Shown here one piece after another: positions 1 to 9,000 of a stretch of DNA of 64,000 bases. The stretch's first letter is position 1. Every line of letters starts with the position of its first letter. The DNA lies in assembly GCF_032062105.1 (NCBI RefSeq), contig NW_026941489.1, forward strand, positions 62,001-126,000. The letters run 5' to 3'. This DNA is from Saccostrea cucullata (Eukaryota). A program made the position numbers.

Positions 1-3000
1 CTCTATTATAAACGGGAAGACTTCAGCTTTATCGTCGTAAACTTCTGTAATATTATATGCAATTGTATTCTTCTGTTAAGTGTTTGTATCTCTAACTTCA
101 TTCATACTCAAGAGAACGACTATTTTTTAAACCGAGGAAAAGTACTGACTAATAAGTTATAAAATCTCGGAAAAAGTCGAAATTTTGAACGTTTTAAAAT
201 CTTGAAAAGAAACAATCTCAGTTTCGCCATATTTTCAGTTTACATTTGTAGTTATTTGTTGGATATAATTTAATACTTTTCATATCTGCTCTGTATAAAA
301 CCAATGGCGAGCGTGACCAGTCAATAGTATGTACATTTATTGACTGGGTTCGAGAGCAGCATGCGTTTTGACTTCAACCAAACAGTTTGGTTCGAGAGGT
401 CGACAAAACGCATTTTGCCATGGAACAAAGATAATAAATGTTTTGTTATAGCTTTTACTATTTATTTTGAAATATTAGAATTTAAATTTTGTTTACCTGC
501 TGCATTGAAGTTCTGTCGAACTCCAACGAATGGAAAGAAGTTAAAGTTGTCCCGCCCACCCTGTGACGTAAGCGGCCGAACATCTCATCAACTGGTCAAA
601 CATGTCACTTTGCGGCCAAACATTGAATTCTATGCCCTCTCAGTAAAACATTGGAAATGACTTTTTTTGCATACAATTTTATAGGACACAATTTTTAGTG
701 GTATAACAGAAATACTTAGTCCATTTATGAACTTGTCCTGTTCATAATTTTTCATGTTTTTATAATAATCATAGGATCGACTTTTTTATTATTGCCTTTA
801 TTGATTGTTTGGTGATTTTTTTCTATTTGATGATTACTTTTGAGCATGTGTTTTATTTTTTTTATTTTCAGAAATAAATGAGATTCATAAAGTCGAAGAC
901 TACGTTGAAAAACTTAAGACGTCAAAACCACATCAAAGAACAGATATAATAAAATTAATACAGACCGAATTGTTGCCCCACTTAAAAGCTAATGACGACA
1001 TACGGAATCTGTCCACTTTACTTACATGTGGTGATGAGGACATACAATCCATAACGCTAAAATCCCTGAAGTCAATTTTATTGACGCTAGAAATCGGTAT
1101 GGTTGAAATACAATCTTTGGAAAGTTGCTTACAAAACATATTAGTGTTGATGATGTCAGATGAAACATCCCAAGTTTTGTGGTTTTCTATATGTCCAGTT
1201 GTTTTGCGTGTTATAGCATTTGTTTCCATACAGTTTTGTTATGTAAAATCAGAGAGGAAAAAGACGTCTGAAATAATGTCCCCAATAGTAGCCCATTTAA
1301 AGGACTACGCTGAAAAACTAACAAAGCATTGGCATAAGGAAAATACGAAGGTCCACAAAACTATTCATTGTATTGTGCATTTTCTTTCAAAATTTGAAAA
1401 ATTTAAAATGAGTGAAACTCTCATAAAAATTCTTGGAAATTGGGAAGATGCATTTTCAACAAAAGACAGTGACAAGGATTTGGCAAAGCTAAGGATACAC
1501 GAGCAATACATTTTCGCATTTGGATTGATCTCAAAGGTATAATTTTAATGCATTTTAACTGTCTCAATAAAAGCTACATGTACATGTATGTCAAAATTGC
1601 AACAATGAGTAACTTTACTCTTCAAAAGAACCATGGTAAGTAAATAAAACACTATCCTGTGCCAGTCATGGATCAGTTATTTGCATTCAAGACTTAGTCG
1701 AAGTTAATTGCTATTCTTGGGGGAGTGAGCGGAAGAGGAGCAAGTTAGCAAATAATGTAATGTTGTTGTTGTTTATTGAAATGCATAATAAGACGGAGAC
1801 AGTAGAATGAGAAGGAGATTGAGTATTTAACAACATTGTAAAAGTAATACTGTAAAATAACATATTTTCAAGGGCTCAATATGCCCAACTAAAGAAACAT
1901 GTTTAATAAAGTAGAAATGGTTCTACGATTAATAAATTAAAAGCTTGAAAGATTATTAAAAATATCAGTAGCTAATCGCAGTTTTTATTAAATTGTTTTA
2001 TTGGTATTTAGATGGCGAGAAGTCCATCGTTGTTTCGCTGCAACTTTATACAGTTTCTTCGAGCAACATACTGTTGTCCTCATCGTCTTGTGGAGAGGAA
2101 GTGGCATGAAGAGTTATTTCATTCTCTTACAGAACTACTCCTTACTGGAGTAGCCGACGTCTTTAACAAAGGTTTTATCTTAGTCTTTAAAGATTTATAT
2201 TTTGTTTACAATTTTGGAAAATTTGAACTGGTTATCTTTTGATATATACACTTAACAAAACTTCTAAGTGTTCATTTTAATAAATGTATTATTTATTGGA
2301 AAAAAACTTAATAGAATGGTATGAAATTTTCAAATTATTACAACAAATGAGTCTTCTCAACAATTATAGAAAGAAAACCAAATATCACCGATGAAAACCA
2401 ATGTTCCGTGACGAACCTTAAAAACAATAAATCTGTACTTCGCGGCACGTGTTTTGTTTAATTAGCATCTTTTTGTGATCATTATCAAATTTTAAAAAAC
2501 TGGTTTCACAAAAAAACACACAAAACATTGGCAAAATGACCATTGAGATAGAAGGGAAAGCCGTTGGAATGTTGATATCTGGACCATATTTGCACCACTT
2601 TTTACTCACTTTTATTTTAGTGTTTAATTGTCCTTGACATTACTTTTAAGAATTAACAACCATTATCAAAACCCATATAAACACATTTTTCTATAAGCTG
2701 TGCGTCATTTTCATCGCCAATTTATCACAATTTGAGAGCTTTGGACAAAATTTAACCAAACCGGAAGTGACCTTGATCTTCTTCTGAGGCCAAAATTTTG
2801 CGTCACATGAGGTTAAAAGAGTGTTAAATTATTCTGAAGCAATCTTAGAAACATGAAAACAAACAATTTTAATCATATGAAAATGATAAGAAATCCGTGC
2901 TCATGACAGTCAAATATCAGCTCAAGCAGTCTGAATCATCATTAAAGCGGTGCACTTACGAGCTAAACGCCCAAGGATATTGACCAAAAGGCCTCTGTGT

Positions 3001-6000: not shown

Positions 6001-9000
6001 AATAAACTTATTTAATTTAAGTATTGTAAGTTTTTTCATTTTGTAAAATTGTAAAATAATAGATAATTTTACATATGTCCATTGTCAGTGCACTATTTTC
6101 TCCTGCTTTTCAACAACAATTTTTCACTGCACTGCTATTCAATTTTATGAGATAAAAAGTTTCATTTTAATATATATATGCATCATGTTTTATGAGATTA
6201 GAAGAATTTGAGACCTGTTACAAAACTTTGAGGTCAAGTATCTACGGCAGAAACAAATCTTTGGAGTTCAATTTGCGAAAAGAAGACCTTGAGTCGAGAG
6301 AAGAATTTAAAATAACAAATGAGGTTAATTTTGTCTGAAACCCCTTTTCCAAAATATTGAAATGATTTGAATAAAATTATTCTTATAACACCATTAACAT
6401 TTATTTATTTATTAATAGATAAATTGCATCATTGTTGAAGAACTAGTATCTGATACCTTTTTTAATCTAATGTTACCAAAATTAAGTGGAACGTTGGCTG
6501 AAAATTTGGGTTTAAAAGAATGTGCAGTAAAGAAAATTCGACGATGTTCATCAAGCACAGATGCAAAAATGATCATCGTAAGACGTTTTATTTTTATTCT
6601 CTATTTCATTTAGAATTGCATATCGATCAAATATGCTCAAATCTCTATGTTTTTATTGTTTATTTTTTATATATACATGTATATTTTAAAATTCTTTGTT
6701 CATTTTGTATTGCTTTTCTTTTCTCTACCATAGTTAAATGTTATCAAACATATCAAACATCAATATATGTTTGGCATTATTAGAAAGTATGAAAAAGAGC
6801 ATTAATACATACAGACTTGGGAAGTCTACTTTATAGCTAGCAATATAATTTTTGTTTCAGCAATATACGTTTCCGTCAAGTTCCAACATTTTGTGTATAG
6901 CTGAAGAAATGTCAAAGAATTCAAAAGAGGAAAACGTAAACACTCTTTTGCGATTTTTATTTGCTGTTGTCAAGCATGTGAAACAAATCCACAGCAGGAA
7001 GTGGTTGATGGTAGACTTGATTGGCAAATATGTTTTTATTATTGACAAGCAAGAAATGCCAAAGGTATTTCAAAATTGTAATAGTACTACTAAAAGCACT
7101 AGTCAGCAATAATTTTTGTGAAAGAGAACAATTATATTAGATTAGTTTCCATGTATTTCTTGCTTTGATTTCTACTTCAGTAATATGGAATTTTTTTTTA
7201 TTTTTGAGTTTAGGCACTTATGATTAGAATTGGTAGGATGCAAAGCTTGCCACAAGAATGTAATATCCAAGAATATAGCATTATAGTCAATCAGGATCTA
7301 CAAGATATGCTTTATTGGTAAAACTGACCTCTTTCTGCTCCTAAGAATTGATAAAAAAACTTAATCTTAACTGAAAAAAAATTCCGTACTTTTTTAACAT
7401 AAATCAATGTCATTGGAGTTAACTGAAGCAAAAGGCAATATTTCCTGAATCACTTGTCAACGTAAAATTAAGTAAAGCATTCATAAGTGATTTTTAAGGC
7501 TTCCCAAGGAAGTAATCGGGCACAACGAACTATCGTGTGGCAGTGATGTTTACACAATGGCAATGCTTTTCTATGAAGTTTTTTCCGTCCTCTCTGGTCG
7601 TGAACGTCTAGATTGTGTGCCATTTGGGAACAAACACAAATCCAAGGCAAGTGTAACAGATTCATATCTCAATAACTAGTACAGAAATTTAAAACTTCCG
7701 GATAGTCCACATTTATCTCCCTTGTAAAGACTTAATTATAATTACCGACCTCCCCTTATTTGTTAAATCATATGTCAACGTTTTTTCAATGTCTTAAAAC
7801 AATTCGTCTCAAAGTGTTTTATTAACTTTTGATATATTTTGGGATTAAATATTTCAAGGTACCATATGATTCGTACGTTCATCATCTATAGAAAATGCTC
7901 ATACATGAAAAATTCTTGTCTAACATATAAATGTTTGATATGCAGCTGTTAGAACATTTGAATGAGGGACAGGTTCCCGAAAAACCGGATCTATGTCCAA
8001 GCTGGTTGTATGATGAAGTAATGTTAAAATGCTGGGACCTCGACAGAACATGTCGTCCACATGTTGATGAGATAATTTCCTTATTTTCGAGCAAGTAAGT
8101 CGACAAAAAATAGCGATTTAAAATGATTTATGATTTTGAGAAAAATTTGATTATCATAAAAATTTCACTATAGAAGAAACTGCTTTACCATTTAAGGTTA
8201 GATTTATCTGATGCCCCATTGTCCTCGGCATCAGGGTCTATCAGCAGCTACAAGGGATTTGATGAGAGTAATTCAAACAGGGGTGATGGATACTTGGACG
8301 TAACACATTCCTCGGATAGTCCCCACACTCACAATGACTATCACAACCCACTAGAGGATGAGGAGGAACATTATGATCTCATCGATGAAAATCTTCTCCA
8401 AACTGTACATTTATAAGTCGTCAATTTTTACGAGAAAAAGAGATAAGGAAATTGTGAATGCGCAAATTAAACGTCGACGTAATGTGTTTTCCTTACATAT
8501 GTTGGTTTTTATTGAAAAAGAGAAGCAAGTGACACAATTGATAATCGTTTGAATTTATGATATTAATTGCGTTTTCATTTAAAATATCTTTGATGCATAT
8601 TCTGTATGTGTTTGTTTCCTTTACTTAATATTTATGATTTTGATGAGTATCCTAATTTTGTTTGTTTTGTTTTCAAATTCTTTCAAAATTTGAGGAGTGT
8701 TATGAAAGCAAAATATTTTTCTCAGGAATTAGACTATATGATTTTTTTAAAGTATACATGTTTTTTTTTGTTTTTTTTGTTTTTTTGCTTTTTTTTTAAT
8801 ATGTTTAATACACCGAATTCTATTAAATACTTTAAAAGAGAAAATATCATGCATCAATAGATTCAAGGCTTTTTTTATCATTAAAATTTTTTTCTCATTA
8901 GAATTTTATTATAATTTTTCAGTGTACATTCTTTTTTTAAATTAAAGAAAACATAAAAACATATCCGAATTGACCAGTACTAAATCACAAATGACAATGA

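What the first reader, a model, noticed from the sequence alone, without database searches (positions are those of the whole stretch)
872..8416. Tandem double pseudokinase of tyrosine-kinase ancestry with a helical N-terminal region
Seen: two kinase-fold domains in one protein of roughly 1,000-1,100 aa. Domain 1 keeps HRD, PIRWSAPE and DVW but has no Gly-loop, no beta3 Lys (ISILIP), HSF in place of the catalytic-loop Asn and KLE in place of DFG. Domain 2 keeps the beta3 Lys (CAVKK) but has MVD for HRD, RIG for DFG and LPKE for APE. Established: JAKs pair a pseudokinase with an active kinase behind FERM-SH2, MLKL pairs a helical bundle with one pseudokinase, and plant tandem kinase proteins act as immune sensors. 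Inference: helical region plus two dead TK domains matches no animal family I recognise and may be a scaffold, decoy or switch.
Basis: partly seen in the sequence, partly recalled or inferred. Interest (0 to 1): 0.75.

Follow-up and report, generated by a model that had tools for sequence, protein, structure and literature searches.

The report
Oyster tandem double-pseudokinase scaffold gene
An intact oyster gene encodes a helical-repeat arm followed by two tyrosine-kinase-like domains that have both lost their catalytic residues; it belongs to a conserved but unstudied bivalve family that probably acts as a signalling scaffold rather than as an enzyme.

Summary
Window 872-8416 (+) carries 14 exons (12 GT-AG introns, 1 GC-AG) that encode residues 77-1137 of NCBI's "uncharacterized protein LOC134257922 [Saccostrea cucullata]" (1137 aa). 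Residues 1-76 lie upstream of the window.

The AlphaFold2 model shows an all-helical region (residues 84-423), kinase fold 1 (427-723), a structured linker with a conserved PERGIP motif, kinase fold 2 (805-1065) and a disordered acidic tail carrying tyrosines.

Both kinase folds are of tyrosine-kinase type by Pfam, PDB sequence search and Foldseek. The helical part is a generic ARM/HEAT-like solenoid with no specific match.

The degeneracy is old and is not decay of this copy. In a 21-protein family alignment (oysters, pearl oysters, mussels, scallops, freshwater mussels, one hemichordate), 0 of 21 keep Lys/Asp/Asn/Asp in domain 1. 0 of 17 keep the DFG Asp in domain 2.

No member has SH2, FERM or F-BAR, so it is neither a JAK nor Fes/Fer, despite some automatic names.

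My searches found no paper describing the family. The function (non-catalytic scaffold or allosteric module) is inferred, not shown.

The parts
872..1536 (+). Exon (first in the window), residues 77-298: most of the N-terminal all-helical ARM/HEAT-like solenoid
   Evidence: Exact match to P0001. Splice sites AG and GT. AF2 model of this exon alone: pLDDT 90.3, pTM 0.87, 12 helices. Foldseek against PDB gave only weak ARM/HEAT/TOG/MO25-type matches, E 0.018-0.25.
2012..2171 (+). Exon, residues 299-352: solenoid continued
   Evidence: helices in the whole-protein model.
3520..4308 (+). Exon, residues 352-615: end of the solenoid (to about 423) and pseudokinase 1 N-lobe through the activation-loop start. 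It contains VTISILIP (3837-3860, no beta3 Lys), HRD (4179-4187), HSF (4197-4205) and KLE in place of DFG (4254-4262).
   Evidence: (PF07714, 25.0 bits).
4801..4979 (+). Exon, residues 615-674: pseudokinase 1 P+1 loop PIRWSAPE (4821-4844) and alpha-F DVW (4878-4886)
   Evidence: PF07714, E 9.3e-15, 55.1 bits.
5088..5253 (+). Exon, residues 675-730: pseudokinase 1 C-terminal helices (alpha-H/I)
5439..5506 (+). Exon, residues 730-752: linker, ends with PER of the conserved PERGIP motif (5498-5506)
5649..5700 (+). Exon, residues 753-770: linker, starts with GIP of PERGIP (5649-5657)
   Evidence: Block pLDDT is 86-92 for residues 741-760.
6202..6323 (+). Exon, residues 770-810: helical part of the linker
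6419..6577 (+). Exon, residues 811-863: pseudokinase 2 N-lobe, CAVKK at 6521-6535
6861..7064 (+). Exon, residues 864-931: pseudokinase 2 alpha-E and degenerate catalytic loop (MVD at 7008-7016 in place of HRD)
   Evidence: This exon alone finds no kinase in PDB sequences at E<=10.
7214..7317 (+). Exon, residues 932-966: RIG in place of DFG (7226-7234)
7499..7646 (+). Exon, residues 966-1015: LPKE in place of APE (7500-7511) and alpha-F. It is followed by the single GC-AG intron.
7946..8094 (+). Exon, residues 1016-1065: pseudokinase 2 alpha-H/I with the tyrosine-kinase-type CP..LY..M..CW..D...RP signature
   Evidence: PF07714, 27.4 bits; 521 PDB sequences at E<=10, and the 60 shown are all tyrosine kinases, best EGFR at 5.8e-7.
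8197..8416 (+). Last exon, residues 1065-1137 plus stop TAA: disordered acidic tail with four Tyr (SSYKGF, GYLDV, DYHNP, HYDLI)
   Evidence: (pLDDT below 50 for residues 1069-1137).

Best explanation
This is an intact, selectively maintained protein-coding gene, S. cucullata LOC134257922. It belongs to an old, uncharacterized family found across bivalves, with one relative found in a hemichordate. Shown: the protein reads disordered N-terminus, ARM/HEAT-like alpha-solenoid of about 340 residues, tyrosine-kinase-derived pseudokinase 1, structured linker with a conserved PERGIP motif, tyrosine-kinase-derived pseudokinase 2, and a disordered acidic tail carrying tyrosines. Shown: neither domain has the residues needed for phosphoryl transfer, either here or anywhere in the family. 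Inferred: the protein does not phosphorylate anything. It works as a non-catalytic signalling scaffold. The solenoid and the well-conserved C-lobes (P+1 loop RW.APES, alpha-F, alpha-H/I) act as fixed protein-binding surfaces. The tail tyrosines sit in acidic contexts and include a recurrent GYL(D/T)V-type motif. They would be phosphorylated by active tyrosine kinases and would recruit SH2-type partners. This is the way the PEAK/PRAG pseudokinase scaffolds work.
For: Gene integrity: 14 exons with no frame breaks and canonical splice sites. One copy in the window. Kinase folds: Pfam PF07714 at 141.9 bits in 2 stretches. AF2 whole-protein model with pLDDT 73.2 and pTM 0.66 shows two bilobal domains. 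Foldseek matches single tyrosine-kinase domains at TMt about 0.7. Tyrosine-kinase ancestry: PF07714 outscores Pkinase, 141.9 against 64.2 bits. The 60 best PDB sequence hits shown, out of 1011, are all tyrosine kinases. Domain 2's last exon hits only tyrosine kinases among the 60 shown. Deep-branching members keep DL(R/C)AA(N/H) in domain 2. Dead in both domains across the family. Domain 1: beta3 Lys in 2 of 21 (or 3 of 20 at the alternative column), catalytic-loop Asn in 1 of 21, DFG Asp in 8 of 21, all four residues in 0 of 21. Domain 2: DFG Asp in 0 of 17 (Arg 15, Lys 2). Constraint: both pseudokinase domains keep 24-44% identity to P0001 across the family, against 10-24% for the solenoid and 9-24% for the tail. 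The orthologue fragment is 81% identical and has the same degenerate motifs. Structural residues are invariant or nearly so: the Arg of HRD, W625, the Glu of APE, D641/W643 and R707. Scaffold features: a solenoid fold (ESM Atlas leads of 0.79-0.81 to RICTOR_N, RME-8_N and UNC45-type solenoids). Disordered tails hold 4-14 Tyr in 16 of 16 members that have a tail of at least 30 aa.
Against: No binding partner, phosphorylation or expression datum was seen. The scaffold role rests on analogy with other pseudokinases. 3 of 21 members (Saccoglossus P0010, S. echinata P0015, M. coruscus P0037) keep both the HRD and DFG Asp in domain 1, so some relatives might still bind nucleotide. The N-lobe columns of the alignment are uncertain, so a displaced Lys (as in WNK kinases, recalled) is not excluded. 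This copy's tail is short (72 aa) compared with 109-500 aa in the other 15 members that have a tail. It lacks the conserved distal motifs of its paralogues. The solenoid assignment is weak: 0 Foldseek hits at E<=0.001, TM 0.25-0.46, and no ARM/HEAT Pfam hit.
Confidence: 0.5

Rival explanations
1. Allosteric regulator of an active kinase. One or both pseudokinase domains pair with the catalytic domain of a separate tyrosine kinase and switch it on or off, as in HER3-type, STRAD-type or JAK JH2-type regulation acting in trans. The fused solenoid would play a MO25-like stabilising role in cis.
For: Residues at the HRD His (16 of 21 have HRD, 5 have HRN) and the DFG Phe/Leu position are kept in domain 1. 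That fits a stably folded, 'active-like' pseudokinase. Foldseek's weak solenoid matches include MO25 (4kzg_D, E 0.24, TMq 0.43). Tandem-kinase entries (JAK1, TYK2 JH2-JH1, EGFR duplication) are the top whole-model matches.
Against: Those tandem matches superpose badly (rmsd 19.6-27.8 A, TMq 0.17-0.21), so the domain arrangement is not JAK-like. The MO25 match is no better than the matches to designed ARM repeats. No partner kinase has been identified. The neighbouring genes are Ig-domain genes and transposons, not kinases.
Confidence: 0.2
2. Immune decoy or sensor. The dead kinase domains mimic host tyrosine kinases and bait pathogen factors, as proposed for plant tandem kinase proteins.
For: The family has several paralogues in oysters. 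S. cucullata has at least 4 loci plus a 95%-identical partial copy. S. echinata has 3 and C. virginica has 2. The paralogue lineages are long-branched. Tandem kinase-pseudokinase proteins are immune receptors in cereals (abstracts listed).
Against: The searches found one copy per species in mussels, scallops and freshwater mussels, with two exceptions: a second, N-terminal M. coruscus fragment that may be the same gene, and three Pinctada records. That is not the pattern of a fast-expanding immune family, although the counts are lower bounds. Both domains are conserved across orders rather than diversifying. No immune domain (death, TIR, NACHT) occurs in any of 21 members. The plant proteins come from a different kinase lineage (recalled).
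Confidence: 0.1
3. Atypical active enzyme. One domain still catalyses phosphoryl or another nucleotide-dependent transfer, using displaced residues.
For: Domain 1 keeps HRD here, and 3 of 21 relatives keep both Asp. Some oyster paralogues have a Lys two positions after the expected beta3 site (AIK, 3 of 20). Domain 2 keeps an Asp at the HRD position in 14 of 18, and 6 of 18 keep Asn at D+5.
Against: In this protein, domain 1 lacks a Gly-rich loop, the beta3 Lys, the catalytic-loop Asn and the DFG Asp, and a Lys sits at the DFG Asp position. Domain 2 has Arg at the DFG Asp position in 15 of 17 members and Lys in 2. No column with a compensating Lys or Asp is conserved across the family.
Confidence: 0.08
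4. Annotation artefact or decaying pseudogene. The gene model fuses two genes, or the copy is non-functional.
For: I saw no transcript evidence. One Pinctada model (P0007) is clearly fused to an amino-acid permease, so such models can be wrong. A 95%-identical partial copy exists on another contig.
Against: There are no frame breaks in 3185 nt over 14 exons and all splice sites are usable. The same two-domain order is predicted independently in at least 10 other species. Conserved motifs span exon junctions. The degenerate motifs are shared by an orthologue and by the family.
Confidence: 0.03

Closest known systems
Janus kinases (JAK1-3, TYK2; Drosophila hopscotch)
   Same: Cytoplasmic protein of about 1100 aa with two tyrosine-kinase-group kinase folds in tandem, at least one of them a pseudokinase. 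JAK1 and TYK2 tandem structures are among the top 4 whole-model Foldseek matches. A fish JAK is the best non-family sequence hit (E 2.4e-6).
   Different: No FERM or SH2 region (Pfam, 0 of 21 members; no BLASTP match outside the kinase domains). Both domains here are dead, whereas JAK's C-terminal domain is active. Both domains align best to JH1, at 21-22% identity, not colinearly to JH2 then JH1. The tandem superposition is poor (rmsd 21-28 A). No JAK is among the 60 best PDB sequence hits.
PEAK1 / PRAG1 / PEAK3 pseudokinase scaffolds
   Same: The working model is shared (recalled): a tyrosine-kinase-like pseudokinase flanked by helices, plus a long disordered region whose tyrosines are phosphorylated by active kinases and recruit SH2 proteins.
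   Different: The PEAKs have a single pseudokinase, helical SHED dimerisation flanks rather than a solenoid, and an N-terminal disordered region. Here there are two pseudokinases, an N-terminal solenoid and a C-terminal tail. No PEAK-family chain is among the 60 best PDB sequence hits shown or the Foldseek matches listed. Membership was not tested further.
Plant tandem kinase proteins (WTK/Yr15, Rpg1, Pm24, Sr62, Lr41)
   Same: Two kinase-fold domains in tandem, with one or both predicted to be pseudokinases, and no receptor ectodomain. They are proposed decoys or sensors (abstracts listed).
   Different: Plant RLK/Pelle-type lineage rather than animal tyrosine-kinase lineage (recalled). The resemblance is convergent architecture, and there is no solenoid. 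No plant protein appeared as a family-level hit. One plant kinase, P0035, matched only weakly (E 2.8e-6).
Solenoid-bearing pseudokinases (ULK4, SCYL1-3) and the MO25-STRAD pair
   Same: A dead kinase domain combined with an ARM/HEAT-type helical repeat that serves as a binding platform (recalled). MO25 is among the weak Foldseek matches of the N-terminal model.
   Different: Those are Ser/Thr-group, single pseudokinases, with the solenoid either C-terminal or on a separate chain. Here two tyrosine-kinase-group pseudokinases follow an N-terminal solenoid. There is no sequence-level relation.
Fes/Fer and ABL (the automatic names given to some family members)
   Same: Cytoplasmic tyrosine-kinase-type kinase fold. 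Fes and ABL1 are among the PDB sequence hits at about 59-60 bits.
   Different: No F-BAR/FCH, SH2 or SH3 domain in any of 21 members. The catalytic residues are lost. Fes and ABL score no better than TrkC, PTK6, BMX, ROR1, EphA2 or FAK, which score 62-68 bits. The names 'Fes/Fps-like', 'Fer' and 'ABL1' are best-hit transfers.

Membership tests
Protein kinase fold, tyrosine-kinase group (Pfam PF07714) | Significant match to the PK_Tyr_Ser-Thr profile over a bilobal domain, for both domains | tested here: met
   P0001: 141.9 bits, E 2.9e-41, 2 stretches, best 489-715. By exon, domain 1 pieces score 25.0 and 55.1 bits and the last domain 2 exon scores 27.4 bits, against a cut-off of 23.1. 21 of 21 family members match. 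The AF2 model shows two bilobal folds, and Foldseek TMt is about 0.7 to RET, FGFR, JAK2 JH1, Fes and BMX.
Protein kinase fold, tyrosine-kinase group (Pfam PF07714) | Tyrosine-kinase-specific signatures: P-x-x-W before APE, the DL(A/R)A(A/R)N catalytic loop, and CW..d...RP in alpha-H/I | tested here: met
   PIRWSAPE in domain 1. DLRAAH (Saccoglossus) and DLCAAN (Ylistrum) in domain 2 of deep-branching members. The last domain 2 exon hits only tyrosine kinases among the 60 shown. All 60 best PDB hits of the whole protein are tyrosine kinases. The signature definitions themselves are recalled.
Pseudokinase (sequence definition) | Loss of at least one of beta3 Lys, catalytic Asp (HRD) and metal-binding Asp (DFG) | tested here: met
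   Domain 1: no Lys at either candidate beta3 column (Ser or Leu), and Lys at the DFG Asp position. Domain 2: Arg at the DFG Asp position. Family-wide, 0 of 21 (domain 1) have all four of Lys/Asp/Asn/Asp. For domain 2, 0 of 17 have the DFG Asp. Absence of activity was not measured.
Janus kinase family | N-terminal FERM and SH2-like domains | tested here: not met
   No FERM or SH2 Pfam hit in P0001 at E<=1 or in any of 21 members at E<=0.001. The N-terminal region is all-helical and solenoid-like. BLASTP against a JAK gives no significant match outside the kinase domains.
Janus kinase family | Pseudokinase (JH2) followed by a catalytically competent kinase (JH1) | tested here: not met
   The C-terminal domain has MVD, RIG and LPKE in place of HRD, DFG and APE. 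The DFG Asp is absent in 17 of 17 members.
Fes/Fer family | F-BAR/FCH domain, SH2 domain and an active kinase domain | tested here: not met
   None of these Pfam families occurs in 21 of 21 members. The catalytic residues are lost.
ARM/HEAT repeat proteins | Recognisable repeat units by profile, or a confident structural match to a solenoid | tested here: inconclusive
   There is no ARM or HEAT Pfam hit in the N-terminal region. The only one, ARM_CPL3 at E 0.02, lies within domain 2. The N-terminal model is confident (pLDDT 90.3) and all-helical. Foldseek gives 0 hits at E<=0.001. The best are designed ARM repeats, symplekin HEAT, TOG and MO25 at E 0.018-0.25 and TM 0.25-0.46. ESM Atlas hits score 0.79-0.81 and are leads only.
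Plant tandem kinase proteins | Two RLK/Pelle-lineage kinase or pseudokinase domains, with a genetically shown resistance function | not tested
   No phylogeny with plant kinases was run. No plant tandem kinase protein appeared among the sequence hits. The comparison is of architecture only.

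The most novel reading that the evidence does not exclude
The family is an ancient bilaterian invention (bivalves plus a hemichordate) in which two tyrosine-kinase domains died early and were kept for hundreds of millions of years as one unit with a fused MO25-like solenoid. It would be an obligate double pseudokinase that acts as an intramolecular 'pre-assembled' allosteric platform controlling an active tyrosine kinase. 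Alternatively it could be a kinase-mimicking bait in bivalve innate immunity, the first animal counterpart of plant tandem-kinase sensors. The complementary losses in domain 1 would then record independent routes to the same dead state. Oysters keep HRD and lose DFG. Five of the six mussel and scallop members keep DFS and have HRN, and the exception, M. coruscus P0037, keeps HRD.
Probability: 0.12. Interest if true: 0.75.

Novelty: new variant of a known kind. Interest (0 to 1): 0.52.

Why it matters
Pseudokinases are now seen as switches and scaffolds, but the animal catalogue is built largely from model organisms. A conserved family with two dead tyrosine-kinase domains behind a helical solenoid would add an architecture that, as far as I know, is absent from the human kinome. 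It shows that tandem kinase-fold proteins other than JAKs exist in animals. It would also give the pseudokinase field a natural case for asking why two dead domains are kept together.

For bivalve genomics there is a practical lesson. The automatic names Fes/Fps-like, Fer and ABL1 on family members are misleading. Part of the reported expansion of 'FER' kinases in the Pacific oyster kinome (eight members, PMC4883820, passages read) might belong to this family. I could not check that, because the supplementary tables are closed.

Tried and rejected
1. JAK relationship: rejected (see the membership tests).

2. Fes/Fer or ABL identity suggested by database names: rejected.

3. Recent internal duplication of one domain: not supported. 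The profiles of domains 1 and 2 align at only 15% identity over 182 columns (hhalign probability 99.3), which is ordinary kinase-to-kinase distance.

4. Second family copy in the window: none. tblastn with 10 family proteins at E<=1e-3 gave 48 hits, all within 847-8095.

5. Specific fold for the N-terminal region: Foldseek against PDB gave nothing at E<=0.001. ESM Atlas scores were at most 0.81. Pfam found nothing.

6. Family assignment of domain 2 by exon-wise PDB sequence search. The catalytic-loop exon gave 1 hit at E<=10, and it is not a kinase. The alpha-F exon gave 2 hits at E about 0.9. Only the last exon was informative.

7. Wider taxon range. The profile search was swamped (8000 candidates scored, 6 hits at E<=1e-10) and added only one orthologue fragment. 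17 short hits come from unnamed records and were left alone.

8. Complex prediction on domain 1 (427-723) against linker plus domain 2 (735-1066): no verdict (score 0.21, mark 0.34, alignment not used, controls not run). It counts neither for nor against contact between the domains.

9. One search used wrong residue numbers for five sites. Its table is void and was replaced.

10. Literature. Searches found no description of an animal double tyrosine-kinase-type pseudokinase or of the LOC identifiers. Kwon et al. 2019 (PMC6997932) is not held. A term search of the review PMC7586955 found none of the six terms tried.

11. Tc1/mariner-like remnant suspected in intron 2 (3006-3179): no Pfam support.

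Full report
WHAT IS THERE

The largest exon ORF (3414-4373) found one database protein among 3629 candidates: P0001, 'uncharacterized protein LOC134257922 [Saccostrea cucullata]', 1137 aa, 99% identical over 83% of the ORF. Wherever a full-length sequence was needed I used that public record, by its id.

Exact matching places residues 77-1137 of P0001 in 14 blocks between 872 and 8413. Residues 1-76 are not in the window.

After refining the split codons, the 14 exons sum to the expected 3185 nt. All 13 acceptors are AG. 12 donors are GT and one is GC, in the context AAG|GCAAGT, after exon 12.

DOMAINS

Pfam on the ORF pieces gives PK_Tyr_Ser-Thr above its gathering score in 3 of 10 pieces. 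A fourth piece falls below it. On P0001 the family scores 141.9 bits (E 2.9e-41) in two stretches, against 64.2 bits for the Ser/Thr-oriented Pkinase profile.

An AlphaFold2 model was built on a 21-sequence family alignment. Its mean pLDDT is 73.2 and its pTM 0.66. It shows:
- disorder in residues 1-50;
- about twenty helices from 84 to 423;
- a first bilobal kinase fold at 427-723;
- a partly helical linker modelled with high confidence around residues 741-784;
- a second kinase fold at 805-1065;
- a disordered tail at 1069-1137.

Foldseek of this model against the PDB puts tandem-kinase entries first: the EGFR kinase-domain duplication, full-length JAK1 and TYK2 JH2-JH1. These superpose at rmsd 19.6-27.8 A with TMq 0.17-0.21. 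They are followed by single tyrosine-kinase domains (RET, FGFR, JAK2 JH1, Fes, BMX, Axl, Ack1, EphA2) at TMt of about 0.65-0.73. The folds are thus tyrosine-kinase-like, but the mutual arrangement is not that of JAK.

TYROSINE-KINASE ANCESTRY

The 60 best of 1011 PDB sequence hits are all tyrosine kinases: EGFR, TrkB/C, PTK6, BMX, ROR1, a Src-Abl ancestor, EphA2/B4, FAK, ABL and Fes. They score 59-68 bits for single kinase-domain chains, and none stands out.

Domain 2 is much more diverged. Searched by exon, its catalytic-loop exon finds no kinase at E<=10, and its alpha-F exon finds only two hits at E about 0.9. Its last exon finds 521 sequences at E<=10, and the 60 shown are all tyrosine kinases, best EGFR at 5.8e-7.

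Deep-branching relatives keep tyrosine-kinase-type catalytic loops in domain 2: DLRAAH in Saccoglossus and DLCAAN in Ylistrum.

The two domains are no closer to each other than kinases generally are. Their profiles align at 15% identity.

THE N-TERMINAL REGION

A model of the first in-window exon alone (residues 78-298, with homologues as the alignment) is confident (pLDDT 90.3, pTM 0.87) and consists of 12 helices.

Foldseek finds nothing at E<=0.001. The best matches, at E 0.018-0.25 and TM 0.25-0.46, are designed armadillo repeats, the symplekin HEAT domain, TOG domains, VIRMA and MO25.

ESM Atlas feature hits for residues 1-445 score 0.79-0.81, which the tool rates as leads only. They are solenoid families: RME-8_N, RICTOR_N, MEI1_N, SYO1 TPR, rotatin and UNC45-central. 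Pfam finds no ARM or HEAT repeat.

I therefore call the region a generic ARM/HEAT-like alpha-solenoid and do not file it in any family.

THE FAMILY

Sequence searches, with names, give relatives in these groups:
- Oysters: S. cucullata P0002, P0003, P0006 and a 95%-identical partial copy, P0013, on another contig. S. echinata P0005, P0015 and the orthologue fragment P0058. C. virginica P0004 and P0008. Ostrea edulis P0009.
- Pearl oysters: Pinctada P0007, P0021 and P0036.
- Mussels: Mytilus trossulus, M. californianus and M. coruscus.
- Scallops: Ylistrum, Argopecten and Mizuhopecten.
- Freshwater mussels: Sinanodonta and Potamilus.
- One hemichordate: Saccoglossus P0010, E 4.8e-25.

All are 'uncharacterized' or 'hypothetical', or carry names transferred from best hits ('Fes/Fps-like', 'Fer', 'ABL1').

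Pfam on all 21 aligned members finds only kinase families, plus an amino-acid permease fused to one Pinctada model. It finds no SH2, FERM, F-BAR, death or TIR domain.

A quick maximum-likelihood tree of residues 427-1066 uses SH-aLRT support only, because the careful search did not finish. It has an oyster plus Pinctada clade (support 100) holding three Saccostrea lineages, and P0001 with P0013 sits there on a long branch. It also has a mussel plus scallop clade (95). Freshwater mussels group with the long Ostrea branch (88). Saccoglossus is a long branch of its own.

No second copy lies in the window.

These counts are lower bounds. The searches are capped and word-indexed.

THE DEGENERACY IS ANCIENT

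The counts come, read on alignment A2. One search used wrong positions and is void.

Domain 1:
- Lys at the expected beta3 column in 2 of 21, or in 3 of 20 at the column two residues later.
- HRD Asp in 16 of 21. The other 5, which are mussels and scallops, have HRN.
- Catalytic-loop Asn at D+5 in 1 of 21 (Saccoglossus).
- DFG Asp in 8 of 21.
- All four residues together in 0 of 21.

The losses are complementary. Oysters mostly keep HRD but have NLQ, SLQ or KLE where DFG should be. The one oyster exception is S. echinata P0015, which has DLN. Five of the six mussel and scallop members keep D-F-S but have HRN. The sixth, M. coruscus P0037, keeps HRD. Three members (Saccoglossus, S. echinata P0015, M. 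coruscus P0037) keep both Asp.

Domain 2:
- DFG Asp in 0 of 17 (Arg in 15, Lys in 2).
- Asp at the HRD position in 14 of 18.
- Asn at D+5 in 6 of 18.
- A Lys in the column of this protein's CAVK in 3 of 15.

The N-lobe columns are the least certain part of the alignment.

The S. echinata orthologue fragment is 81% identical over 315 aligned positions. It has VTISILIP, HRDIALHSF and KLELA.

Both domains are the best-conserved parts of the protein. They keep 24-44% identity to P0001, against 10-24% for the solenoid and 9-24% for the tail.

Structural residues are invariant or nearly so: the Arg of HRD, W625, A627, E629 and S630 of the P+1 loop, D641 and W643, T654, G656 and P659, and R707.

A PERGIP motif in the linker is invariant in the 10-sequence alignment. 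It is largely kept in the 21-sequence alignment. In this gene it spans an exon junction.

Together with the unbroken reading frame, this argues against a decaying pseudogene or a fused gene model. I saw no RNA data.

HOW IT PROBABLY WORKS

Shown: there are two kinase folds that lack the residues for phosphoryl transfer, a solenoid, a structured linker and a disordered acidic tail.

Inferred: the protein is a non-catalytic scaffold.

The tails of the 16 members that have one of at least 30 aa carry 4-14 tyrosines, mostly in acidic contexts. A (D/G)-G-Y-L-(D/T)-(V/A/L) type motif recurs in oysters, scallops and freshwater mussels. In this protein the tail tyrosines sit in SSYKGF, GYLDV, DYHNP and HYDLI. 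By analogy with the PEAK/PRAG scaffolds (recalled), they could be docking sites once phosphorylated by active kinases.

I give this reading 0.5. The rivals are:
- an allosteric partner of an active kinase (0.2);
- an immune decoy in the manner of plant tandem kinase proteins (0.1);
- residual atypical catalysis (0.08);
- an annotation artefact or pseudogene (0.03).

COMPARISON WITH WHAT IS KNOWN

It works like a pseudokinase scaffold. It is not a JAK, because there is no FERM or SH2 region and no active JH1. Both domains align to JH1 at 21-22% identity. It is not Fes/Fer or ABL.

It resembles plant tandem kinase proteins only in architecture. It resembles ULK4, SCYL and MO25-STRAD only in combining a dead kinase with a solenoid.

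LITERATURE

Seven full-text searches found no paper on an animal double tyrosine-kinase-type pseudokinase or on six LOC identifiers of family members.

For the Pacific oyster kinome paper (PMC4883820) I read matched passages only. It reports five 'TK-unique' kinases, 28 kinases of ambiguous class and eight 'FER' members. It does not mention pseudokinases or 'kinase domains'.

For the holozoan tyrosine kinome paper (PMC8662651) I also read matched passages only. It keeps an 'unclassified' bin, and the terms 'mollus', 'invertebrate' and 'two kinase' did not occur.

A term search of the review PMC7586955 found none of the six terms tried. Kwon et al. 2019 is not held.

VERDICT

The gene is already annotated but uncharacterized, and its family and architecture appear undescribed in what I could search. 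I rate it a new variant of a known kind (pseudokinase scaffolds and tandem kinase proteins), with interest 0.52.

Noticed in passing
window 12463-20815 and 24643-37046, + strand: There appear to be two tandem immunoglobulin-superfamily genes downstream of the pseudokinase gene. Ig/I-set exon hits lie at 12463-12717, 16453-16695, 18122-18364, 24643-24957 and 35550-35831, which is 5 of the 60 ORFs scanned. Each group is followed by a large ORF (20180-20815 and 36267-37046, no Pfam family above its gathering score) that looks similar by eye. These ORFs carry YDIL-type tyrosine motifs reminiscent of the HYDLI in the pseudokinase tail.
   Followed up: partly
window 27420-35114: A LINE-like retrotransposon lies on the + strand. 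Its Exo_endo_phos domain is at 27420-28301, RVT_1 at 28484-29311 and zf-RVT at 34542-35111. It is split by a nested PIF/Harbinger-type element, with a DDE_Tnp_4 transposase ORF at 31703-33028 (-) and a MADF-domain ORF at 29613-30464 (+). The nested element coincides with the GC-rich block at 30-34 kb, where GC is 0.41-0.45 against about 0.30 in the flanking blocks. It probably sits in an intron of the second Ig gene.
   Followed up: partly
window 7647-7945: The intron after exon 12 of the pseudokinase gene has a GC donor (AAG|GCAAGT) instead of GT. The other 12 introns are GT-AG.
   Followed up: yes
P0013 (another S. cucullata contig of 18,787 bp); P0047, P0052: A 95%-identical partial copy of this gene sits on a short separate contig of the same assembly. 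It may be a haplotig or a very recent duplicate. It is named 'tyrosine-protein kinase Fes/Fps-like, partial'. Other family members are named 'Fer' (Mizuhopecten) and 'ABL1' (Mytilus coruscus). These names are not supported by domain content.
   Followed up: partly
P0007 (Pinctada imbricata, 1569 aa): This family member carries an N-terminal amino-acid permease (PF13520 and PF00324). This is most likely a merged gene model rather than a real fusion.
   Followed up: no
window 5498-5506 + 5649-5657 (residues 750-755): A PERGIP motif in the inter-domain linker is invariant in the 10-sequence alignment and nearly so in the 21-sequence alignment. It is modelled with block pLDDT 86-92 and is split by an intron. 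I know of no described motif of this kind.
   Followed up: partly
family alignment A2, domain 1: The catalytic losses are complementary between clades. 11 of the 12 oyster and pearl-oyster members keep HRD but lack the DFG Asp. The exception, S. echinata P0015, keeps both. Five of the six mussel and scallop members keep D-F-S but have HRN, and M. coruscus P0037 keeps HRD. This suggests either independent routes to inactivity or an ancestor that was already inactive for another reason.
   Followed up: partly
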